Positions 324-8,682 of a stretch of DNA of 24,279 nucleotides are shown here, piece by piece; the stretch's first letter is position 1, and the number at the start of each line of letters is the position of its first letter. The notes under the pieces are model-generated. The model was not told the DNA's origin. It did not search any database and worked only from the letters and a program-made list of their open reading frames with translations. A program made the translations under genes and the position numbers. The stretch spans positions 1 to 24,279 of the forward strand of contig JAADHA010000514.1 of the NCBI GenBank assembly GCA_013152105.1, read 5' to 3'. This DNA is from Oligoflexia bacterium. GTDB lineage: Bacteria > Myxococcota_A > UBA796 > UBA2385.

Positions 324-1310
324 TCAGGGCAACCGGATGCCGGCCTTGTCGGCGATGGCCCGGGTCAACTGACGAAAGTCCTCGCCACACTTCCGAGCGG
401 CAGCGCCGCGGGAGCCAAGCGCGCCGTCGGCCGGCTTGAGGTGGAAGATGGGCTTGCGGGCCTCTATTGCCATGGGCATCAGGCTGCGGTAGTGCTTGAG
501 CTGGGCGAGGCAGTGGGGGTCCTTGTCGACTTTCACCACGTCCGCCGAAGGCTCGTCCAGCACAGAGCCCCGATACTCCGACGGGATCCTGGCCATCCAC
601 TTCGCATTGGCTCGCATCGGTCGATCCAGTCGCACGTTGTGCTGGAGGACGACATACCCGGCGGGTGCCATCGCCCCGGTTGGGAGATCCAGGTCTCGTG
701 GTGCCTTTTGGCGGCGTTCAGCCCAGCCCTCTCGCCAGTCGCGCAGGGCGGGGCCAAGGTTACGCAGCCCTTGGAGCGAGAACAGGTCCGGTGCGAGGGG
801 CATGACCACGTGGTCGGTTCCAAGCAGGGCCGCGCGCTTGATGGCGCCCAGGTTTGGACCCACATCGATGAGCACGATCTCGGTACCACGTGCCTCGGCC
901 GCCATGAGCATCATCCGGTAGAAGGCCGTCAGCATTCGGAAGGCGGCTTCGTCCTGGTCGAGGCAGCGGTGCCAGTCCTGGGAGAGGCGATCCTCGATGC
1001 GGGAGAGACCCAGGTCTCCCACGACCAGGCCGATGGCGTCGCTGATCTCCTCGACATGGGGCTGGCGCACATCGCCAAGCCCCCGCAGAATCGGCCCGAC
1101 CGCACCGAGCACAGTGTCGACGTGATCGTCGTCCGGCCACAGCTTCGCCAAGCGCTCTTCTTCCAGGAACATCGACGTGAGGTTGGCCTGGGGATCGAGA
1201 TCGGCGACCACGACATCGACCCCGAGGTCGGCCAGTGTCCAGGCCACGTGGTAGACCAGGGTGCTCTTGCCCACGCCGCCCTTGTTGTTGAAGAAGGCGA
1301 TGGTGTTCAT
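324..1310 (-). CDS. ParA/MinD-family ATPase (328 aa)
   Basis: Deviant Walker A NNKGGVGKST, ADLDPQANLT motif, Walker B IVLIDVGP and PLAPDLFSLQGL. The C-terminus HYRSLMPMAIEARKPIFHL is typical of the non-partitioning ParA subfamily. The ATG overlaps the upstream stop (ATGA at 1310-1307). Confidence 0.92.
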   Translation of the reverse strand: MNTIAFFNNKGGVGKSTLVYHVAWTLADLGVDVVVADLDPQANLTSMFLEEERLAKLWPDDDHVDTVLGAVGPILRGLGDVRQPHVEEISDAIGLVVGDLGLSRIEDRLSQDWHRCLDQDEAAFRMLTAFYRMMLMAAEARGTEIVLIDVGPNLGAIKRAALLGTDHVVMPLAPDLFSLQGLRNLGPALRDWREGWAERRQKAPRDLDLPTGAMAPAGYVVLQHNVRLDRPMRANAKWMARIPSEYRGSVLDEPSADVVKVDKDPHCLAQLKHYRSLMPMAIEARKPIFHLKPADGALGSRGAAARKCGEDFRQLTRAIADKAGIRLP

Positions 1311-2065
1311 GATCTCCGCCTGACGGTGACGAGCGTGGCGCTTTGCGAGAGCGAGAACTCCGGTGGAGGGTTGCCGTTGTCTCGCAGCAGTCGCCTGGAG
1401 AGGGGGATCCCGTAGCCGAAGCGCTGGACGTAGCCGAGGTTGGCCATGGCTTCCGCCACCAGGGGGTTGCGATAGTCGGTCGCGCCACTGCCGAAGTTGT
1501 CCAGAGTCACCTGCCCGAAGGGGCCGCCGGGGTTGTGGATCTCGACGCGATCATCGAACCAGTAGATGCGAACGGGGGCGTTGCTGGTCTCGTAGTTGCG
1601 ATGGATCAGGGCGTTGCGGGCGAGCTGCTGCAAGGCCGCCAGGGGGTAGTCGCGGACGCGTGACTCGGTCGCCCCGCCTGCGATGTCGACGGCGGTGGAG
1701 ACATTGAGCTTCAGCAGGCCGTCGAGCCGATGAACGACTTCGTACAGCGGACCGGACAGATCGTGGTCGTCCTTGATGGGGTCGCCCAGCTCGGTGCCGT
1801 CGATGCGCAGGAACACCAGGTACGCGCCGGGGACGAAGCTCCTCGGGTCCTTCCCCAGGACCAGGATGGCACCGTAGGTAGGCAGATAGCCAGACAGCAA
1901 GCGCAGGGACTCAAGGCGTTCCTGGACGGTTCGTTGGTTGTGACGGAGCACATCCGCATCGACTGCCGCGGGGAGGTAATTGCTCTTGAAGTAGGCAAGG
2001 TCGAGATCGTCCAGGCCCGAGCCGTCGGCTGGACGCCGGTCGAAGGGCTGGCTTCGGTGACTCAT
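1307..2065 (-). CDS. RecG-C/HATPase_c_4-type ATP-binding protein lacking the N-terminal Schlafen/AlbA_2 domain (252 aa)
   Basis: Motifs YPLAALQQLARNALIHRNY, RVEIHNPGG, YRNPLVAEAM and GYVQRFGYG. ATG at 2065 has GAGGAG just upstream. It begins at the PFD..P...LDDLD segment that normally follows the AlbA_2 domain. It could be a truncated remnant. Confidence 0.8.
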   Translation of the reverse strand: MSHRSQPFDRRPADGSGLDDLDLAYFKSNYLPAAVDADVLRHNQRTVQERLESLRLLSGYLPTYGAILVLGKDPRSFVPGAYLVFLRIDGTELGDPIKDDHDLSGPLYEVVHRLDGLLKLNVSTAVDIAGGATESRVRDYPLAALQQLARNALIHRNYETSNAPVRIYWFDDRVEIHNPGGPFGQVTLDNFGSGATDYRNPLVAEAMANLGYVQRFGYGIPLSRRLLRDNGNPPPEFSLSQSATLVTVRRRS

Positions 2066-2143
2066 GCCGGTGCTCCTCTCTTCCTGCTTGCCCTGCGGCG
2101 CCGGCCCGCAGCCCCAGATCCCCATGAGCCCCCCACCCGAGCG

Positions 2144-4228
2144 TCAGTGACCGGGGGCCAGCGTGGTCTCGAAGGTCCAGTAGTCGGCGGGATCACTCAG
2201 CGCGAAGGTCATCGTGTGCAGCCCGCGAGAGATGCAGCCCAGAAAGTCGGGGTCTACATCGGCTGGTTCCAGTGCGGTGAGGCCCTGAACATGACCGCTG
2301 AAGCCCACGAATGCCCGCAGCTTGATGCTGCTTGGTGCGTCTGCATGGGCGGTGAAGCAGGTGTCGAACATGGCGCGCGAGACTTGGAGTTGTTCCTGGA
2401 CAGCGGCCGCCGAGAGGGTGACGCCTTCTTGGCTCTTCGTGGGCTGGAAGAGGGGCTGGTCCAGTTCAAGGTGGGGCTGTACAGAAATGGGGTGATCTGG
2501 CTTTGGGTCCACCACGTCCTGGAAGGGCTGGAAGCCGTCGAGGGACACGGTGAGCCGCACGGGACCGGGTGGGAGCTGGTCGCCCTGGAAGGTGTGCGGG
2601 CCGACTCCGACCAGGACATCGTTGAGGTACACGACGGCCGTCGGTGGATCGGGGTCCACCTGAAGGAGTCGTTGGCTGGAATTGGGTTGGGTGCTGACTT
2701 GGTAGGCCAGCCGCCCGGCTCCCCAGAGCGTGAGCGCGCCCACCGCCACCAGGCCGGCGATGAGCAGGACCCGTGGAACCCGCTCGCGCTCGACATCCAA
2801 GGTGACGGTCACTCGCGGACCATGGGATGGCACGATTGTCACGATGCTGCTGCCGCGTTGGCGGGGCATCCGATCTGGATGAACGGTCGCCGTGATCTGG
2901 TGCTGGGTCTGTCCGGCGTCCAGCCGCTCGGGATTGACGGTGACCCAGTCGCGATCCGCCATGATGCGGCCGGTGGTGGGCCCGGTTCCGACCTGCTTGA
3001 GTCGAATGGTGACGGAGCGGTTTCGCCTGCCGACGCGTAGGCTGTACTGGTTGGGAGTGAGCAGTTCGACGCAAGTTCCACTGCGCTGTGAGCCGAGAGA
3101 CAGGGTCTTACCGGTGATACGCTCGGGCGGTCGAGGAATGCTCAGCACCGAGGGTTTTGGCGGTGTGGACCCGGGATTGGACCGGATGGCGGCCATGAGG
3201 TGGGACGCGGGGACCGGTGGGATCGTGCCAGGTGGCTGTGTGACGGGACGTTTGCCAGGTGATGGTCGTCTGGGCTGGGACTGTGGTGGAGCGGAGATCG
3301 TGCGTGCACCGGGGGGGGCGCTGCTACCCGAGCGCTCGAGTCTGATGGGTGGGAGGGTCCCGGGCGGTTCGGTCGTGTCGCGCCGCTTCTTGTCCTTTGC
3401 AGATGAACTTCCGCCAAAGGAGACAAAATTGAGACTGGGCAGCGAGGGCTCCTGGTCCGCGCTGGCCTGGCTCGGCTCGTTGGTGGGCGGTCGCAGGAAG
3501 CCGTCGGTAGGGTCCAAATCAAAGGCAGAGGCAGCAGGAAAATGGGCCCGGTACTTGTCGTCATAGGCGGCACGCCGAGTCGGGTCCTTCAGGTCTCGGA
3601 GCGCTGCGTCGATGCGGGAATACTCGTCTCGCGATCGTCGCGTGTCGGACAAGGTGCGTGCCCAGCGGTACTTTTCTCGGTACGCGTGGTCGATCTCGTC
3701 TGGTGTGGCGGAGATCGGGACTCCCAGGACCAGGTAGTGGTTGGGGAAGTCGTCGGGGGGCGCACTGCCGCTGGCTGCACCGCCGCTGGTGTCGATGCCG
3801 TGTTCCTTGGCGAGGGACTGGATTTGCTGGCGCACGGCGCTTTCCTTCAAGCCGAGCTTCTTGCCCTGAGCGAGGATGGCGGCTTCGCCGGCTGGGGTGA
3901 GCGAGCCGCTGGCCAGCGTGCCCCGGATGAAGAGAGACAGGACCTCGAGACCGCGGGTCTGCTCGTGGTCGGCGAGATAGTCGATATACTGCTGGCGCGC
4001 GTCCATCAGCGATCCGCGCAGCAGGCGGATGTTCTTGATCACCCAGATCGCTTCGCCACGGTACTTGGGATTGGCTTGTTGGCCCTGGGCCCAGGCGCGG
4101 CGGCTCTTGATCGCTTGTTCGGCTTCGCCCGCAGGAGCCTGTGGGTCGAACGACAGGTAGTCGAACAACGAGGTCTTTCCCACTGTCGTGAGGAAGCGGG
4201 TGATTTCTTCGAAGTCGCGCTCGTTCAT
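2144..4228 (-). CDS. Single-pass membrane protein: J-like domain, TerB-like helical segment, J-like domain, Pro-rich linker, Ig/BACON-like domain, TM helix, PEGA, AgmX/PglI (TonB-C-like) C-terminal domain
   Basis: The J fold is clear at 3742-3551 (NHYLVLGVPISATPDEIDHAY...DLKDPTRRAAYDDKY) but has no HPD. TM helix VLLIAGLVAVGALTLWGAG at ~2770-2714 is preceded by RERVPR. PEGA pattern LQVDPDPPTAVVYLNDVLVG..P...L.PG...L.V...GF. C-terminal VQEQLQVSRAMFDTCF...F.GCI..L..M.F. Start is ATG 4228 or TTG 4264 (ORF track). Confidence 0.8.
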   Translation of the reverse strand: MNERDFEEITRFLTTVGKTSLFDYLSFDPQAPAGEAEQAIKSRRAWAQGQQANPKYRGEAIWVIKNIRLLRGSLMDARQQYIDYLADHEQTRGLEVLSLFIRGTLASGSLTPAGEAAILAQGKKLGLKESAVRQQIQSLAKEHGIDTSGGAASGSAPPDDFPNHYLVLGVPISATPDEIDHAYREKYRWARTLSDTRRSRDEYSRIDAALRDLKDPTRRAAYDDKYRAHFPAASAFDLDPTDGFLRPPTNEPSQASADQEPSLPSLNFVSFGGSSSAKDKKRRDTTEPPGTLPPIRLERSGSSAPPGARTISAPPQSQPRRPSPGKRPVTQPPGTIPPVPASHLMAAIRSNPGSTPPKPSVLSIPRPPERITGKTLSLGSQRSGTCVELLTPNQYSLRVGRRNRSVTIRLKQVGTGPTTGRIMADRDWVTVNPERLDAGQTQHQITATVHPDRMPRQRGSSIVTIVPSHGPRVTVTLDVERERVPRVLLIAGLVAVGALTLWGAGRLAYQVSTQPNSSQRLLQVDPDPPTAVVYLNDVLVGVGPHTFQGDQLPPGPVRLTVSLDGFQPFQDVVDPKPDHPISVQPHLELDQPLFQPTKSQEGVTLSAAAVQEQLQVSRAMFDTCFTAHADAPSSIKLRAFVGFSGHVQGLTALEPADVDPDFLGCISRGLHTMTFALSDPADYWTFETTLAPGH

Positions 4229-4267
4229 GTCCGCCAGCGGCGTCGCCTGGTTCACGTTGGCCAAGGC

Positions 4268-4300
4268 GTTTGTACCGCCCGAGCAGGGGGGCGGTCAAAC
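4268..4300 (-). promoter_or_regulatory. Intergenic 12-bp hairpin/inverted repeat containing a possible TTGACC-N18-TACAAA promoter
   Basis: Minus strand reads GTTTG-ACCGCCC-(CCCTGCTC)-GGGCGGT-A-CAAAC: 7 bp plus 5 bp with a one-base bulge and no U-tract. The -35-like hexamer is at 4298-4293 and the -10-like hexamer at 4274-4269. Function is inferred. Confidence 0.35.
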
Positions 4301-4330
4301 TTGTAAAGACCGTCCTGTGCGAGCGTGACC

Positions 4331-6112
4331 TTAACTGACTTGGGCCCGGTTCACGTTCTCGAAAGCGCGGGACAGATCGTCCTGTCCGAGGCCGCCGCGG
4401 AGGCTGATCTCGGCGCTACGCGTGGCCTGTGTCTCGACATCGACGACGTCGACTTCCAGGATCTGATTGACGCCGTATCGATAGCTGACCTCGATGACCG
4501 TGCCCCGAGGCCGGGGTGGCAGCTTGTCGAGGATCACCTCGCCGATGACCTTGACTTCGGCGCGTGAGCCGCCTTCACCCTCGGTTACTTCGACGCGCAC
4601 GGCGGTCATATTGTCGTAGGCATAGGCGAAGCGACCGTGTTTCTCGCAGGGAAGCGGGGTCGCCGATGGGATGATCGGCACCACGCGTTCGCGGAGCTGC
4701 TTGTCCAGGACGACGATACCCAGCGTGTGGCTGGTGATATCCGTGACCTTTACGTTCGGGATTCCGACGGTGGTGCGGCCGATTTCGTTGGTGAACGGGT
4801 TGGAGGCTGACCGCCCATGCCTGGAGCGTTCCGGAGCGGGTTCCAGCGTGGGCGTCAGGTCGTGTTCGAGGTGGCTGGGTTCGGTTGGCGCGGGTACCGG
4901 CAGGGGTGCCGGTAGGGGTGCCGGTAGGGGTGCCGGCAGGGGTGCCGGTCGGGGTGCCGGCGCGTCCTGGCTTGGAGAGGCTGCGCGCCTGCGCCCGACC
5001 GCGCGATGGGCCAGCGCTTGCCGATGGGCGAGCAGCGCCGGGTGCGAGGGGCGGTGTCGCAGCACGCCTGCCAGGGCAGCGCCCAGCGCCACGCACTCGT
5101 CGGGGTTGACGCCCAGGGCCGCTTCCTGACCCGACATTGTACGCAGCCGCTGACTGATCATCGGCATGCGTGTCGAGCCCCCCACCAGCAGGACCTCGTC
5201 CAGATCCCCCCACCCGACGCCGGAACGCTTGAGCACCAGATCGCAGGTCTCCGCACACTGCTCGACCAGGTCTGCCGTCATCGCCTCGAACTCTTCCCGC
5301 ATGACGCTGACCACCATGCGGTTCCCCTTGTAGGTGACGGGGATCACGGCCCGCTCGCGGCTCGACAGGGAGATCTTGGCGTGCAGACAGCGTTCGTAGA
5401 GTTCCTGGTAGCGGTGTGGGTCATCGCGCGGATCAGAGCCGAACTTGCTGACGAATTCCTCGGAGACGTGGTTCACCAGCCGGTCGTCCCAGTCCTTTCC
5501 CCCCAGCTCGGCGTTGCCATCGCTGGCTACGGTGCGAAACGACACGCCCGTGATCTCCATCAGCGTCACGTCAAAGGTGCCTCCGCCCAGGTCGAAGACC
5601 ATCAGGCGGCGGTCCTGGCCCAGCCGCTCGATGCCGTAGGCGATCGCGGCCGTGGTCGGCTCGTTGATGATGGACAGCACATTGAGGCCAGCGAGCTTCC
5701 CGGCTTCGGCGGTGGCACCGCGCTGGGCGCTGTTGAAGTAGGCGGGCACCGTGACCACCGCGTCGCAGACGGCTTTTCCGAGCGCTTCTTCAGCGTCTTC
5801 CTTCATCTTTCGCAAGATGATGGCCGAGAGTTCTTGGGGGGTGTAGGTCCTGCCGAAGAACTCCAAGGAGAAGTCGGGTTCGCCCATGGTGCGCTTGATG
5901 AAGCGCACGACATTGGTCGGATCGACGACCACCATCTTGACCGCTTCTTCGCCGACAACACAAGCGTCGCGATGGTAGAAGTGAATCACCGAGGGCGTGG
6001 TCGGGTGACCGTCGGCGTTGGGGACGATCACCGGCTTGCCGAAGCGATCGACAATTGCCATGGCCGAGAAGGTCGTGCCAAGGTCGATGCCCATGACCAG
6101 ATCGCTGTTCAT
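4331..6112 (-). CDS. Hsp70-family protein, lidless, with ~100 aa Pro-rich insertion before the interdomain linker (593 aa)
   Basis: GIDLGTT, TVPAYF, INEPTTAAIAYG, VFDLGGGTFDV, LVGGSTRMP and NPDECVALGAAL are present. The SBD-beta runs DITSHTLG...LPPRPRG...YRYGVNQILEV. The protein ends about 20 aa later. ATG 6112 lies 13 nt after the grpE stop. Confidence 0.93.
   Translation of the reverse strand: MNSDLVMGIDLGTTFSAMAIVDRFGKPVIVPNADGHPTTPSVIHFYHRDACVVGEEAVKMVVVDPTNVVRFIKRTMGEPDFSLEFFGRTYTPQELSAIILRKMKEDAEEALGKAVCDAVVTVPAYFNSAQRGATAEAGKLAGLNVLSIINEPTTAAIAYGIERLGQDRRLMVFDLGGGTFDVTLMEITGVSFRTVASDGNAELGGKDWDDRLVNHVSEEFVSKFGSDPRDDPHRYQELYERCLHAKISLSSRERAVIPVTYKGNRMVVSVMREEFEAMTADLVEQCAETCDLVLKRSGVGWGDLDEVLLVGGSTRMPMISQRLRTMSGQEAALGVNPDECVALGAALAGVLRHRPSHPALLAHRQALAHRAVGRRRAASPSQDAPAPRPAPLPAPLPAPLPAPLPVPAPTEPSHLEHDLTPTLEPAPERSRHGRSASNPFTNEIGRTTVGIPNVKVTDITSHTLGIVVLDKQLRERVVPIIPSATPLPCEKHGRFAYAYDNMTAVRVEVTEGEGGSRAEVKVIGEVILDKLPPRPRGTVIEVSYRYGVNQILEVDVVDVETQATRSAEISLRGGLGQDDLSRAFENVNRAQVS
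4897..4960. repeat. 12-bp tandem repeat, about 5 copies, in frame (PAPL units)
   Basis: Units CCGGYAGGGGTG start at 4897, 4909, 4921 and 4933, CCGGTCGGGGTG at 4945, plus a partial CCGG. They encode PAPRPAPLPAPLPAPLPAPLP. Confidence 0.9.
5082..5109. repeat. 28-bp perfect direct repeat shared by the two Hsp70 genes (other copy 7658-7685)
   Basis: CCCAGCGCCACGCACTCGTCGGGGTTGA is identical at 5082-5109 and 7658-7685, encoding NPDECVALG. Confidence 0.85.
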
Positions 6113-6125
6113 GGGCGGTCCGTCT

Positions 6126-6671
6126 TCACTTGCCACCCGACGTCTCCGAGCCAGTAGCGCGACCAGGCTCGAAGCGATTGATCACGACTTCTTCGGGTCG
6201 CAGGATCCGCTCGCCCCGGGTGAAGCCCCGCTTCAGGACCTGGCGCACGACATAGTCCTTGAGCTTGTCGTTGGCGTAGACGACCTTGATGGCCTTTTGG
6301 GTCTCGCGATCGAACTTGTCCTTGCTCTCCATGGGCAGGACGTCTCGGCGGTAGAGCAGCTCGAGGAACTCGTCGATCAGGTACTGAAAGCTGTCCGCGA
6401 TCACCTCGGCGCTCATCTCTTGCTTTACCAGGCTTTGCTGGAACCAGTTGAGGCTGTCGTAGAACAACAGCAGGTCGAGCAAGAGCGGCTTCTCCATCTG
6501 GTAGATGAAGTCGTCCTTGTACTGCCGAAGCTCTTCGTAGAGGGCATCAAAGGCACGCTGCTGGACATCGTCGCGCTTGGCCTGCTGGTCGACGAAGTCG
6601 CGCAGGCTGTCGACTTCGTCGCTCTGGACGTCGATCGAGTAGTCCTGCTCAGGTGTCTGGTTGTCTGCCAC
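6126..6671 (-). CDS. grpE: GrpE-family nucleotide exchange factor (181 aa)
   Basis: Coiled-coil N-terminus, KPLLLDLLLFYDSL, KFDRETQKAIKVV and the C-terminal VRQVLKRGFTRGERILRPEEVVI. GTG start with AGGAG overlapping the upstream TAG stop. Confidence 0.85.
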   Translation of the reverse strand: MADNQTPEQDYSIDVQSDEVDSLRDFVDQQAKRDDVQQRAFDALYEELRQYKDDFIYQMEKPLLLDLLLFYDSLNWFQQSLVKQEMSAEVIADSFQYLIDEFLELLYRRDVLPMESKDKFDRETQKAIKVVYANDKLKDYVVRQVLKRGFTRGERILRPEEVVINRFEPGRATGSETSGGK

Positions 6672-6681
6672 GGGCTGACTC

Positions 6682-8682
6682 CTAGCTTGGGTCGCTCAGC
6701 TCGGTCGCGAGGTTGATGAAGGTGCCTTCCAATTCCACGCTCTGGTTGCAGTGGTGGTAGTCGGAAGGGCGCGAGCACAAGCCCATCAGGAATTCCTGAT
6801 GGACCTGTCTGCCCACGCCGATGGCGACGATGCGGCCCCCGGTGCGGCGGATGCGCTGGCTCTCTGCCATGGTCGCGGCCGGATCGTCAGGGTGCCCGTC
6901 CGCCAGGATGACCACGACGCGCTGGGCCCCCGAGTTGCTCTTGAGAGCCTTGCGGGCCTGTTGCAGCCCCAGCGCCATGGGCGTGGACCCGATGGGGCTC
7001 AGGCCACTGAGCGCGGCGTGCAGCGCGTCTCGATCCTGGGTTGGCGCGGCACGAAGCCCGCCAGGGAAGGCGATGACGGCGATGTGTCGGGAACGGTCCA
7101 GGGTGCGGTCGACGAAGGCCAGGGCGGCCGCGCGGGCGTCCCGGATATTGCTGCCGTACATCGATCCCGAGCAGTCCATCACCAGCGCGATGTGCATGGG
7201 CACACGATTGCTGGCCAGGTCTTCCAGGGTCACGCCGCCCTGCGCCAGACGGTGGGCCAGCGTCTGGCCGGTGTTGAGGTCCATTGCTTCGACTTCGACG
7301 ATGCCGTTTGCGTTGTAGCGGTAGGTCACAGCGAGCTGTGTAGCGCCAGCGGGCCGGGGCGGGATCCCGTAGAACTCGAAATGCCCGAGCACATTGCAAT
7401 TCAGCGGGTCGGGGTTTTCGCCTTGGACCAGCCACAGGTCCATCGTGGACTGACCGTCGTGGGTCGTGACGTAGTTGTCGCGCGTGTGTTCGCATGGAAT
7501 GCGGCTGTTGCGCCGGATGATCGGGCTGTTGTGCATCTTGTTGTCGCGGTACACGACCATGCCCAGGCTGTGGCTGGTGACGTCGTGGGTGCGGATGTCG
7601 ATCGGTGGTCGGTCGCCAGTGAGTCGTGCGCTCTCCAGGGCCGCGGTGAGCGCCGCACCCAGCGCCACGCACTCGTCGGGGTTGATGTCAGTGGCGGGCT
7701 CGCGCTGAAACAGGCGCCGGATCAGCTCGCGCACCATGGGCATGCGGGTTGATCCACCGGCCAACAAGACCGTGTCGATGTCCTGGGGGCGAACCTTGGC
7801 GTCGTCCATGACATCCAGGGTCAAGGCTTCGCAGCGGCCGAGCAAGCCGATCGACAGATCCTCGAAGATCTCACGGGTGATGGACTGCCGCAGGATCTGG
7901 CCCTGGAAGTCATAAAAAATGTTGACCTTTGGGCGACGCGAGAGGCTGAGCTTGGCGCTTACACACTTCTGGCGCAGGTCGTGGTAGGCGACCAGGTCGT
8001 CGAGGGGGTCGACGCCGTGTTTCAGACTGAACTCGTGCGCGACGTAGCGCATCAGCGCGTCATCCCAGTCCTTTCCGCCGAGCTGATGGTCGCCGGTGCT
8101 GGCCAGCACGTTGATGTCGTTGCCGCGAATGTCGACGATGGTCACATCAAAGGTGCCACCGCCAAGGTCGAAGACCAGGCACTTCATGTCCTGGCCCTGG
8201 TGGGCCAGTCCGTAGGCGAAGGCGGCCGCGGTGGGTTCGTTGACCAGCTTGAGGACCTGGAGACCGGCCAGCTCGCCGGCCCGGATCGTGGCGCGGCGCT
8301 GCCGGTCGCCGAAGTAGGCTGGAACCGTCACGACCGCCTGTTCGATGCTGTGCCCCATGCGGTGTTCGGCGTCGTGCTTGAGTCGGGCCAGGATGAAGCT
8401 GGACAGCTTTTCGGGGCTGTACTGTTCGCCGCGGTACTCAAAGCTGAAGTCGTCGGGGCCCATGTGGCGCTTGATGAACTCAACCACCTGGTTTGGAAAC
8501 GCGATCGCGGCCTGCTTGGCGTAGTTTCCGACGATGATGTCGTCGCCGTCAAAGAGCAGGACGGATGGGGTGATCCGGTCCCCCTCGGCGTTGGCGAGGA
8601 TCTCCGGTACACCGTGCTTGTTGACGTGGGCGATGGCCGAGTAGGTCGTGCCCAGGTCGATGCCGACAGCTCGGATACTCAT
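6682..8682 (-). CDS. Hsp70-vWA fusion protein (666 aa)
   Basis: Hsp70 motifs GIDLGTT, VPAYF, VNEPTAAAFAYG, DLGGGTFDV, LAGGSTRMP and DVTSHSLG. These are followed by a vWA domain (~7200-6685) with MIDAS DCSGS, GSTP and ILADG. ATG 8682 has a TAAGGAG SD. Confidence 0.93.
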   Translation of the reverse strand: MSIRAVGIDLGTTYSAIAHVNKHGVPEILANAEGDRITPSVLLFDGDDIIVGNYAKQAAIAFPNQVVEFIKRHMGPDDFSFEYRGEQYSPEKLSSFILARLKHDAEHRMGHSIEQAVVTVPAYFGDRQRRATIRAGELAGLQVLKLVNEPTAAAFAYGLAHQGQDMKCLVFDLGGGTFDVTIVDIRGNDINVLASTGDHQLGGKDWDDALMRYVAHEFSLKHGVDPLDDLVAYHDLRQKCVSAKLSLSRRPKVNIFYDFQGQILRQSITREIFEDLSIGLLGRCEALTLDVMDDAKVRPQDIDTVLLAGGSTRMPMVRELIRRLFQREPATDINPDECVALGAALTAALESARLTGDRPPIDIRTHDVTSHSLGMVVYRDNKMHNSPIIRRNSRIPCEHTRDNYVTTHDGQSTMDLWLVQGENPDPLNCNVLGHFEFYGIPPRPAGATQLAVTYRYNANGIVEVEAMDLNTGQTLAHRLAQGGVTLEDLASNRVPMHIALVMDCSGSMYGSNIRDARAAALAFVDRTLDRSRHIAVIAFPGGLRAAPTQDRDALHAALSGLSPIGSTPMALGLQQARKALKSNSGAQRVVVILADGHPDDPAATMAESQRIRRTGGRIVAIGVGRQVHQEFLMGLCSRPSDYHHCNQSVELEGTFINLATELSDPS

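What the first reader, a model, noticed from the sequence alone, without database searches (positions are those of the whole stretch)
2144..8682. Candidate new system: membrane-tethered dual-Hsp70 operon (Hsp70-vWA, GrpE, lidless Hsp70, J-like/PEGA/AgmX-like membrane protein)
Seen: four co-oriented genes with gaps of 10, 13 and about 66-102 nt, and the grpE SD overlaps the upstream stop. They supply a complete dedicated Hsp70 cycle, yet three of the four parts are atypical. Neither Hsp70 has the alpha-helical lid, one ends in a MIDAS vWA domain, the other has a ~100-aa insert, and the J partner is a transmembrane protein with extracytoplasmic domains. ATPase residues equivalent to DnaK D8, K70, E171 and T199 are retained in both Hsp70s. 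No CIRCE or clear sigma32 promoter is visible upstream. Established: specialised Hsp70/J sets exist (E. coli HscA/HscB, HscC/DjlB/DjlC; M. xanthus StkA, SglK), and vWA domains serve as client adaptors for chaperone-like ATPases such as MoxR. Inference: this is a dedicated trans-envelope machine coupling a periplasmic cue or structure to a cytoplasmic Hsp70 pair, for surface-complex assembly, signalling or biological conflict, rather than heat-shock folding. I do not recognise this combination as described.
Basis: partly seen in the sequence, partly recalled or inferred. Interest (0 to 1): 0.85.

Follow-up and report, generated by a model that had tools for sequence, protein, structure and literature searches.

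The report
Conserved membrane-tethered dual-Hsp70 operon
This is a real gene cluster, kept in one fixed housekeeping position across a whole order of uncultured Myxococcota, that encodes two shortened Hsp70 chaperones, their own recharging factor and a membrane anchor protein; nobody has studied it and its job is unknown.

Summary
Four intact, co-oriented genes on the minus strand encode Hsp70-vWA, a GrpE-like factor, a lidless Hsp70 with an insert of about 95 aa, and a J-like/TM/PEGA protein.

New facts:
- In relatives it is a five-gene operon. A TPR + Asp-zincin minipeptidase gene overlaps the end of the J-like gene. In this window that gene is replaced by a HATPase_c_4/ParA pair.
- The cluster occurs in essentially every sampled genome of the window's order, always beside maf-UDG-S1-queA-tgt-yajC-secDF. 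The fusion is almost unseen in the rest of the phylum.
- Both J-like domains lack HPD in all 21 orthologues. DnaK R167 is K or S in the two Hsp70s, so a canonical J-triggered cycle is doubtful.
- Neither Hsp70 groups with DnaK, HscA or HscC.
- Distant Hsp70-vWA + Hsp70 cassettes sit in GAP1-N2 DO-GTPase conflict systems (Kaur et al. 2020). That GTPase core is missing here and rare in the order.

I read it as a vertically inherited, membrane-tethered specialised Hsp70 machine, not a heat-shock set or a mobile defence island. The function is inferred. This scan already noted the same module type in another genome (e1-4418930). Verdict: new variant of a known kind, moderately interesting.

The parts
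6682..8682 (-). Gene A: Hsp70 (NBD + SBD-beta, no helical lid) fused to a C-terminal vWA domain with an intact MIDAS motif. 666 aa. SD AAGGAG lies before ATG 8682.
   Evidence: Pfam HSP70 443 bits (model 1-493/599) and VWA 54 bits. Aligns to Geobacillus DnaK 2v7y residues 3-468. DxSGS invariant in 24/24 orthologues. 64-89% identity across the order. Start region read.
6685..7191 (-). vWA/MIDAS domain of A (residues about 498-666). It sits where DnaK has its lid.
   Evidence: Pfam VWA at residues 498-643. DCSGS at residue 503. Conserved C-terminal Cys-x-Cys...EGTFINLATEL motif.
6126..6671 (-). Gene B: short GrpE-like nucleotide-exchange factor, 181 aa. Its SD overlaps the stop codon of A.
   Evidence: Pfam GrpE 50.5 bits. 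One of only two GrpE genes found in the assembly. TAGGAG-N8-GTG junction. Present in 22 loci.
4331..6112 (-). Gene C: second Hsp70 (NBD + SBD-beta, no lid), 593 aa from ATG 6112. It carries a variable Pro-rich insert between the NBD and the interdomain linker.
   Evidence: Pfam HSP70 407 bits in 3 stretches. The genome scan shows the model ending at position 517. ATPase motifs intact and R167->S. Start codon.
4742..5023 (-). Insert of about 95 aa in C. It has a conserved basic helix-like start, then low-complexity Pro/Ala-rich sequence. Its length varies among orthologues (C is 512-607 aa).
   Evidence: Alignment against the genome's own DnaK. Orthologue lengths.
2144..4228 (-). Gene D: bitopic inner-membrane protein, about 694 aa from ATG 4228. 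Cytoplasmic J-like/TerB-like/J-like/Ig module, one TM helix, periplasmic PEGA and AgmX/PglI-type C-terminal domain.
   Evidence: AF2 model m252524da1312, mean pLDDT 79.8. Found in 54 of 61 relatives. Alignment of 21 orthologues.
3791..4228 (-). D N-terminal helical domain. First half is a J-like domain without HPD ('RRxWAQGQQANPKYR'). Second half is weakly TerB/DjlA-like.
   Evidence: pLDDT about 95. Alignment A3. TerB 2ou3 at E 0.028. DjlA NCBIfam hit for the L037 orthologue, residues 35-184. Atlas lead at 0.77.
3521..3748 (-). D second J-like domain. A true J-domain homologue, but HPD is replaced by 'RWARTL'.
   Evidence: Pfam DnaJ 28.4 bits. Profile versus PDB J domains E 4e-14. No HPD in any of 21 orthologues.
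3083..3520 (-). D disordered Pro-rich linker. It carries two short motifs, each found in about half of the 21 orthologues.
   Evidence: pLDDT below 50. Motif counts.
2780..3076 (-). D cytoplasmic Ig-like (PapD/MSP/ASH/BACON-like) beta-sandwich next to the membrane.
   Evidence: VIA-align Z up to 13.4 over residues 394-492. Foldseek hits. Weak BACON_2.
2708..2773 (-). D transmembrane helix.
   Evidence: Helix 495-516 in the model, hydrophobic sequence. Aligned in all orthologues.
2156..2668 (-). D predicted periplasmic part: PEGA domain plus a C-terminal alpha/beta domain with two conserved Cys (AgmX/PglI C-terminal type in orthologues).
   Evidence: Pfam PEGA 24.6 bits. NF033768 hits in 10/21 orthologues, best E 2.9e-9, below the curated cut-off; the window copy itself gives no hit. 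Variable or absent in some orthologues.

Best explanation
This is a vertically inherited, order-specific, specialised Hsp70 machine that works at the cytoplasmic face of the inner membrane. It is not a heat-shock folding set and not a mobile defence island.

Shown:
- Two ATPase-competent, lidless Hsp70 paralogues (A and C), a private GrpE, a bitopic membrane protein D and, in relatives, a TPR + Asp-zincin minipeptidase are co-transcribed-looking genes.
- They are kept together in a fixed housekeeping neighbourhood across the order.

Inferred mechanism:
- D holds the two Hsp70s at the membrane through its two HPD-less J-like domains. These act as stable docking modules rather than catalytic triggers, comparable to Pam16 in the mitochondrial import motor or Zuotin-Ssz1.
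- The matching loss of R167 in both Hsp70s fits such a rewired contact.
- GrpE resets the nucleotide state.
- The vWA/MIDAS domain that replaces the lid of A captures an acidic motif of a partner or client.
- The TPR-zincin, which is translationally coupled to D, trims or cleaves that client.
- Where present, the periplasmic PEGA and AgmX/PglI-type domain ties the complex to the envelope, as proposed for the GltG/GltJ family.

The most likely role is remodelling, extraction or processing of a membrane or envelope-associated client.

In this particular genome the peptidase gene has been displaced by an inserted HATPase_c_4/ParA pair, or lies beyond the contig end.
For: Conservation and synteny:
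- D found in 54 of 61 relatives.
- The SBD-beta+vWA fusion matches at full length in all about 60 sampled genomes of the order. It does so in none of 18 same-class genomes and in only about 3 weakly matching ones among about 320 same-phylum genomes.
- Identical gene order A-B-C-D-zincin, with maf/UDG/S1/queA flanks, in more than 24 loci.
- The D stop and the zincin start overlap by 1-4 nt in most loci.
- A is more conserved (64-89%) than flanking QueA, S1 and Maf.

Protein features:
- Catalytic motifs intact. R167 is K in A and S in C. The linker is altered in a family-specific, conserved way.
- MIDAS invariant.
- HPD absent in all orthologues, yet the J fold is kept.
- Asp-zincin motif HExxHxxGxxD kept in 20 of 22 (PMC3890501).
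- D domain model. AgmX/PglI-type and DjlA-like hits.

Context in the genome:
- A separate canonical dnaK-dnaJ and a second grpE exist.
- A and C are each monophyletic and lie outside DnaK, HscA, HscC and seven own paralogues.
- No PADLOC hit for A-D. No CIRCE.
- GAP1-N2 found in 1 of 61 relatives and DO-GTPase2 above the cut-off in 4 of 61; neither in the window's genome.
Against: - There are no expression, interaction or phenotype data. No RNA runs hold the locus.
- The client is unknown.
- D evolves fast (26-50% identity), and its periplasmic part is lost in some members. That pattern also fits a sensor in a conflict system.
- Distant homologous cassettes lie in DO-GTPase/GAP1-N2 systems or beside an AAA_21/DUF3696 ATPase.
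- Here the zincin gene is missing, so the window copy may be incomplete or working differently.
- Without HPD it is unclear what stimulates ATP hydrolysis.
- The tree is unrooted and was built by the quick method.
- The genome is a 79%-complete MAG and the window is a whole contig.
Confidence: 0.55

Rival explanations
1. It is a conflict or immunity module. It would be a GTPase-less descendant of the HSP70-GrpE-DnaJ theme of GAP1-N2 DO-GTPase systems. D would act as the fast-evolving sensor, and the Hsp70 pair, vWA and zincin would act as a thresholded effector or regulator.
For: - The described theme has HSP70 + GrpE + a second HSP70 + a DnaJ-fused beta-sandwich protein, with PEGA domains and membrane proximity (PMC7159879).
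- A distant Hsp70 + Hsp70-vWA cassette lies directly beside DO-GTPase2 and GAP1-N2 genes (L068).
- Another lies next to an AAA_21/DUF3696 ATPase (L060).
- D is the least conserved component.
- A defence-like ParA/HATPase_c_4 pair sits immediately downstream in the window.
Against: - Present in essentially all sampled genomes of the order, at one fixed core-genome position.
- A is more conserved than neighbouring housekeeping genes.
- No nuclease, TIR or pore effector is present.
- No PADLOC match for A-D.
- GAP1-N2 in 1 of 61 relatives and DO-GTPase2 above the cut-off in 4 of 61; neither in this genome.
Confidence: 0.2
2. It is an assembly or coupling factor for a specific trans-envelope machine, for example a Glt-like gliding or secretion complex. 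D would act as a GltG/GltJ-like connector that recruits Hsp70 power.
For: - C-terminal domain of D orthologues matches the AgmX/PglI C-terminal family in 10 of 21 (best E 2.9e-9) and GltG weakly.
- D has a long Pro-rich linker, a single TM helix and PEGA, like such connectors.
- AFDB fold neighbours include TonB-family and PEGA proteins.
Against: - All matches are below the curated cut-off, and the window copy itself gives no hit.
- The periplasmic domains are missing in several orthologues.
- No motility or secretion genes are linked in any locus examined.
Confidence: 0.12
3. It is simply a redundant general proteostasis or stress Hsp70 set, a back-up for DnaK/DnaJ/GrpE.
For: - Both Hsp70s keep all ATPase motifs and an SBD-beta.
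- A GrpE is present.
- Myxococcota carry many Hsp70 paralogues with partly overlapping roles (PMC8265645).
Against: - No lid in either Hsp70, no HPD in the J-like partner, an altered interdomain linker and an altered R167.
- Membrane tether, vWA and peptidase partners.
- No CIRCE.
- Separate clades from DnaK.
- The lidless M. xanthus paralogues tested did not complement E. coli dnaK (PMC8265645).
Confidence: 0.08

Closest known systems
HSP70-GrpE theme of GAP1-N2-type DO-GTPase conflict systems (Kaur, Burroughs, Iyer, Aravind 2020, eLife, PMC7159879)
   Same: - A private HSP70, a GrpE, a second truncated HSP70 and a DnaJ-fused beta-sandwich protein.
- Membrane proximity, with PEGA-type extracytoplasmic domains.
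- A distant Hsp70 + Hsp70-vWA cassette really sits next to DO-GTPase2 and GAP1-N2.
   Different: - No DO-GTPase or GAP1 in the window or in this genome, and both are rare in the order.
- Both Hsp70s keep SBD-beta here.
- A vWA is fused in place of the lid.
- A TPR-Asp-zincin partner is present in relatives.
- The locus is fixed in the core genome and near-universal in the order, rather than patchy.
E. coli HscC with DjlB/DjlC
   Same: A specialised, non-heat-shock Hsp70 paired with membrane-anchored J proteins encoded nearby.
   Different: - A and C fall outside the HscC branch.
- According to the literature (from memory), DjlB and DjlC have HPD; D does not.
- HscC has no GrpE, vWA or second Hsp70.
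E. coli DjlA (TerB-like domain + J domain, membrane-anchored)
   Same: A TerB-like helical region followed by a J-type domain on a membrane protein. One orthologue matches the DjlA model over both parts. There is weak TerB similarity.
   Different: - The anchor is C-terminal to the J-like domain and is followed by periplasmic domains.
- HPD is absent.
- There is an extra N-terminal J-like domain and an Ig domain.
- All matches are far below the family cut-off.
Mitochondrial PAM import motor (Tim44, Pam18, HPD-less Pam16, mtHsp70, Mge1/GrpE) and yeast RAC (Zuotin-Ssz1)
   Same: This is a functional analogy from established knowledge. These are membrane- or ribosome-tethered Hsp70s, with J-like domains lacking HPD used as structural or regulatory partners, and a GrpE-type exchange factor.
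   Different: No sequence relationship beyond the shared domain families. The direction of work and the client are unknown here. No catalytic HPD J domain is encoded in the operon at all.
Myxococcus xanthus grpS-sglK and StkA
   Same: Non-heat-shock Hsp70 paralogues of Myxococcota, one with its own GrpE.
   Different: SglK is a full-length DnaK-type (PRK00290) protein that complements E. coli dnaK (PMC8265645). No vWA architecture is mentioned in that survey (0 occurrences).
MoxR-vWA chaperone/co-chaperone pairs
   Same: A MIDAS vWA domain is coupled to a chaperone-like ATPase, presumably as a peptide or partner adaptor.
   Different: The ATPase is an Hsp70, not an AAA+ protein, and the vWA is fused to it rather than encoded separately.

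Membership tests
GAP1-N2 DO-GTPase system (HSP70-GrpE theme) | A DO-GTPase (Pfam DO-GTPase2, PF19993) encoded in the system | tested here: not met
   No GTPase among the window's genes. PF19993 not found in G000 (79% complete). Found above the cut-off in 4 of 61 relatives, never next to the operon.
GAP1-N2 DO-GTPase system (HSP70-GrpE theme) | A GAP1 protein with a GAP1-N2 domain (PF20013) | tested here: not met
   PF20013 found in 1 of 61 relatives and not in G000.
GAP1-N2 DO-GTPase system (HSP70-GrpE theme) | HSP70 + GrpE + DnaJ-fused beta-sandwich (FNIII) protein | tested here: met
   Pfam HSP70 twice, GrpE and DnaJ. D has an Ig-like beta-sandwich. It is a single domain, not rapidly evolving repeats.
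Canonical DnaK | Full NBD + SBD-beta + helical lid; scores above the NCBIfam DnaK equivalog cut-off | tested here: not met
   A scores 435 bits and C 420 bits against a cut-off of 648 (NF001413). The HSP70 model ends at position 493 in A and 517 in C. Both form separate clades from DnaK.
HscA / HscC | Groups with E. coli HscA or HscC in an Hsp70 tree | tested here: not met
   A (support 99) and C (support 100) are each monophyletic. They lie outside the branch (support 99) that holds DnaK, HscA, HscC and seven own paralogues. The tree is unrooted and was built by the quick method.
J-domain protein (functional Hsp70 ATPase activator) | J-domain fold | tested here: met
   Pfam DnaJ 28.4 bits, against a cut-off of 27.8. 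Profile versus PDB J domains E 4e-14. Structural matches Z 9-10.
J-domain protein (functional Hsp70 ATPase activator) | Invariant HPD motif between helices II and III | tested here: not met
   No HPD in either J-like domain in any of 21 orthologues. The sequence is 'YRWARxLxD' in place of 'KYHPD'.
GrpE | Pfam GrpE above the gathering score | tested here: met
   50.5 bits against 25.8. All NCBIfam GrpE equivalogs are far below their cut-offs, so this is a divergent, short GrpE.
vWA with functional MIDAS | DxSxS...T...D metal-site motif | tested here: met
   DxSGS is invariant in 24 of 24. The T ('GSTP') and D ('ADGHPDD') positions are read directly from the sequence.
AgmX/PglI (GltJ/GltG) C-terminal domain family, NF033768 | Match above the curated cut-off (40 bits) | tested here: inconclusive
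   10 of 21 orthologues match at E down to 2.9e-9 (36.9 bits), all below the cut-off. The window's own copy gives no hit at E 0.1 or better.
Known anti-phage defence systems (PADLOC-DB 2.0) | Any component model matches A-D | tested here: not met
   Only one marginal hit for A (E 0.004). None for B, C or D.

The most novel reading that the evidence does not exclude
The five proteins form a previously unknown kind of J-independent, membrane-tethered Hsp70 'dislocase-protease'. Two lidless Hsp70s would be docked on HPD-less J-like domains. A MIDAS vWA adaptor would seize an envelope or membrane client, GrpE would reset the motor, and a coupled Asp-zincin would cleave the client. That would make it a bacterial counterpart of organellar Hsp70 motors, important enough to be kept by a whole order of Myxococcota.
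Probability: 0.15. Interest if true: 0.75.

Novelty: new variant of a known kind. Interest (0 to 1): 0.55.

Why it matters
Specialised Hsp70 systems are few and mostly known from E. coli and organelles. This one combines several departures from the textbook cycle:
- neither Hsp70 has a lid;
- the partner has no HPD, and the Hsp70s show a matching R167 change;
- a MIDAS adaptor is fused to one Hsp70.

It is nevertheless under strong purifying selection in every sampled member of an order. That makes it a good natural test case for two questions. How does an Hsp70 work without a catalytic J domain or a lid? How was a cassette that elsewhere sits in predicted conflict systems fixed as a core-genome function? 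The deep search shows at least 36 clusters (50% identity) of Hsp70-vWA fusions, so whatever is learned would apply widely.

Tried and rejected
- PADLOC scan of all six genes: nothing for A-D.
- CIRCE and sigma-70 scans: nothing.
- Orthology with M. xanthus SglK/GrpS: rejected, because SglK is a full DnaK-type protein with a lid.
- The search for related loci in genome contigs gave only 5 orthologous loci, since its peptide patterns were too specific. The genome search was used instead.
NCBI labels of related MAGs are inconsistent.
- The TPR-zincin gene was sought in the window's own assembly and not found. Homology with the nearest relative stops at the end of D.
- Foldseek and VIA searches with the whole D model were dominated by the Ig and J domains. 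They gave nothing decisive for the N-terminal helical domain or the C-terminal domain.
- Word-based homologue search with the D N-terminus returned only orthologues.
- Candidate D-like partners next to the distant cassettes (L060 315-aa ORF; L068 513- and 566-aa ORFs) show no similarity to D.
- RNA evidence: only DNA-type runs from a hydrothermal-vent metagenome hold the locus.
- Literature searches for an Hsp70-vWA fusion operon found no description.
- The CoCoNuT Hsp70-like units are a different context.

Full report
**1. What is in the window**

Four intact genes lie head to tail on the minus strand.

- Gene A (8682..6682, 666 aa) is an Hsp70. Its Pfam match stops at model position 493 of 599, which is the end of SBD-beta. 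A vWA domain follows. An AAGGAG sits 6 nt before its ATG.
- Gene B (6671..6126) is a short GrpE (50.5 bits). Its AGGAG overlaps the TAG stop of A.
- Gene C is a second Hsp70. Orthologue N-termini show that it starts at ATG 6112, 13 nt after the B stop. It ends about 25 residues after SBD-beta. It carries a Pro-rich insert of about 95 aa between the NBD and the linker.
- Gene D most likely starts at ATG 4228. It carries a weak DnaJ match and a PEGA domain.

The rest of the contig is housekeeping: maf, UDG, an S1 protein, queA, tgt, yajC, secD, secF, phoH-PIN, a SpoU methylase, rseP and tsaB. No CIRCE or sigma-70-like promoter was found.

**2. Conservation**

- The Hsp70-vWA protein has thousands of close homologues, all about 666 aa long and 70-90% identical. 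They come from MAGs labelled Myxococcota, Delta- or Alphaproteobacteria.
- Protein D was found in 54 of 61 relatives.
- A query made of SBD-beta plus vWA matched at full length in all about 60 sampled genomes of the window's order. It matched in none of 18 genomes from other orders of the class. Among about 320 other genomes of the phylum it matched only weakly (29-30% identity) in three.
- More than 24 loci from six families of the order were mapped by tblastn/blastp. They show the same order A-B-C-D, always divergent from maf-UDG and followed by S1, queA, tgt, yajC, secDF and HU.
- A is 64-89% identical across these loci, which is more than QueA, S1 or Maf.

This is vertical inheritance in a core-genome position. 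It is not the patchy, island-borne pattern of a defence system.

**3. A fifth gene**

In all relatives a gene of about 275 aa follows D. In most loci it overlaps D's stop by 1-4 nt. It encodes TPR repeats plus a Pfam Zincin_1 domain. The C-terminal Asp-zincin motif HExxHxxGxxD is kept in 20 of 22 (the motif is defined for this family in PMC3890501).

In the window this gene is absent. Similarity to the nearest relative (L001, A 89% identical) stops at the end of D. What follows is a HATPase_c_4 gene and a ParA gene, after which the contig ends. The zincin gene was not found elsewhere in the 79%-complete assembly.

A divergent subgroup (L038, L039) has a shorter D without PEGA and a zincin homologue that has lost HExxH.

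In one genus (G034, G054) and in G049, the D and zincin genes lie on a different contig from A-B-C. For G034 the fetched loci show A-B-C in mid-contig with D-zincin elsewhere.

**4. The proteins**

*The two Hsp70s.* Both keep every ATPase motif in all orthologues. The residue equivalent to DnaK R167 is K in the A family and S in the C family. The hydrophobic VLLLD linker is 'DIRTHD' in A and 'VxVTD' in C, each conserved within its family. The MIDAS DxSGS motif is invariant.

*Phylogeny.* In a tree with E. coli DnaK, HscA and HscC and seven other Hsp70 paralogues of the same genome, A and C are each monophyletic (support 99 and 100). Both lie outside the branch that holds all the others (unrooted, quick method). 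The genome also has a canonical dnaK-dnaJ pair, an HscA-like gene and a second grpE next to a J gene.

*Protein D.* It was modelled with 21 orthologues (mean pLDDT 79.8). Its parts, in order:

| Residues | Part | Evidence |
|---|---|---|
| 10-155 | Helical N-domain. First half is J-like without HPD; second half is weakly TerB/DjlA-like | |
| 170-245 | Second J-like domain. Clearly homologous to J domains, but with 'RWARTL' for HPD | |
| about 246-391 | Disordered Pro-rich linker, about 145 aa | |
| 394-492 | PapD/MSP-like Ig domain, Z 13.4 | |
| 495-516 | One TM helix | |
| 530-600 | PEGA domain | |
| 610-700 | C-terminal alpha/beta domain with two conserved Cys | |

- No orthologue has an HPD in either J-like domain.
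- The C-terminal domain matches the AgmX/PglI (GltJ/GltG) C-terminal family in 10 of 21 orthologues. The best E-value is 2.9e-9, all scores are below the curated cut-off, and the window's own copy does not match.
- The periplasmic part is dispensable in evolution. L004 and L005 end right after the TM helix, and L033 and L034 lack the last domain.

**5. Relation to what is known**

- The library holds no paper describing this gene set.
- The nearest description is the HSP70-GrpE theme of GAP1-N2 DO-GTPase conflict systems. It has HSP70, GrpE, sometimes a second truncated HSP70, and a DnaJ-fused FNIII protein (PMC7159879).
- A profile search of 1.84 billion representatives found 585 proteins at E 1e-30 or better. 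Among the best 150, at least 36 are full-length Hsp70-vWA fusions of about 650-780 aa.
- Context look-ups gave varied results. One is flanked by two further Hsp70 genes and followed by DO-GTPase2 and GAP1-N2 genes (L068). One sits with GrpE, a beta-propeller protein and a lidless Hsp70 (L066). One has no Hsp70 or GrpE gene next to it (L069).
- Within the phylum, G116 has GrpE/Hsp70/Hsp70-vWA beside an AAA_21/DUF3696 ATPase.
- So the Hsp70 + Hsp70-vWA (+GrpE) cassette is widespread and appears in several contexts.
- In the window's order, GAP1-N2 was found in 1 of 61 genomes. DO-GTPase2 was found above its cut-off in 4 of 61. Neither was found in the window's genome. Membership in that system is therefore not met.
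I confirmed independently its point about GTPase-linked relatives.

**6. Interpretation**

The data best fit a specialised, membrane-tethered Hsp70 machine with a lineage-specific housekeeping role.

- Shown: the gene set, its conservation and synteny, intact ATPase and MIDAS sites, the missing HPD, lid and R167, the membrane topology implied by the model, and the coupled Asp-zincin.
- Inferred: the J-like domains act as docks rather than triggers; the vWA replaces the lid as a partner or client adaptor; the zincin processes the client; the periplasmic domains link the complex to the envelope.
- Rivals: the conflict-system reading keeps about 0.2, because of the distant GTPase-linked relatives and the fast evolution of D. 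A role as accessory to a Glt-like trans-envelope complex keeps about 0.12. A general stress back-up keeps about 0.08.

**7. Limits**

- The genome is an incomplete MAG from a hydrothermal-vent metagenome, and no RNA data exist for it.
- The window is a whole contig, so the loss of the fifth gene cannot be told apart from an assembly break after an insertion.
- Counts across relatives are samples. 'Not found' does not mean absent.

Noticed in passing
window 324-2125 (minus strand): A HATPase_c_4 protein lacking the usual Schlafen/AlbA_2 N-domain is translationally coupled (ATGA) to a ParA-like ATPase. The pair occupies the place where all relatives have the TPR-zincin gene. PADLOC links the first gene to Aga SIR2-PNTD models and the ParA to candidate PDC-M28B. 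A 2026 preprint describes ParA-effector immunity systems with a histidine kinase fused to Schlafen. It looks like a small defence-type insertion.
   Followed up: partly
L064:6655-8034 (-) and L063:7635-8825 (+): The N-terminal J-like/TerB-like domain of D also occurs on its own in other proteins of the same order. One copy is fused to a SAM methyltransferase. Another is in a 397-aa protein beside dnaE2/imuB-like genes. It is therefore a mobile module, perhaps a general Hsp70-docking adaptor.
   Followed up: partly
window 3485-3502 and 3092-3136 (D linker): There are two short motifs in the disordered linker. The first is 'GFLPPP'-like, about 10-25 residues after the J-like domain (8 of 21 orthologues by pattern, plus the window's variant GFLRPP). 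The second is 'P..P...G[KR]T[LI]xL' before the Ig domain (10 of 21). From memory, the first resembles the LPPVK motif of IscU that HscA binds. They could be pseudo-substrates for the two SBD-beta domains. Untested.
   Followed up: partly
L038, L039, L040 (G030, G056, G032): A divergent subgroup of the order has A at only 48-53% identity. In L038 and L039, D is short (397-415 aa) and lacks PEGA, and the TPR-zincin homologue has lost HExxH. L039 also lacks a recognisable GrpE.
   Followed up: partly
L030/L031 (G034); also G054, G049: In one genus and one further genome the D and zincin genes lie on a different contig from A-B-C. In G034 gene C is split into two overlapping frames within its low-complexity insert.
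   Followed up: no
G000 contigs C28, C57, C66, C100, C381 (L048-L051, L054): The genome has at least ten Hsp70-family genes. Several others also end at SBD-beta and carry other C-terminal extensions, for example a 910-aa ORF on C66. Three have small J-domain genes beside them. Lid replacement seems to be a general theme in this lineage.
   Followed up: no
L002, L004, L005, L020: Public records of genomes that share this operon and its synteny carry conflicting taxonomic labels: 'uncultured Enterobacterales', 'Alphaproteobacteria bacterium', 'Deltaproteobacteria', 'Myxococcota'. The first two labels are probably wrong.
   Followed up: no
L060:2206-9749 (G116): In another family of the phylum a GrpE/Hsp70/Hsp70-vWA cassette has a different gene order. 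It lies directly after an AAA_21/AAA_15 + DUF3696 ATPase, a combination typical of defence islands.
   Followed up: partly
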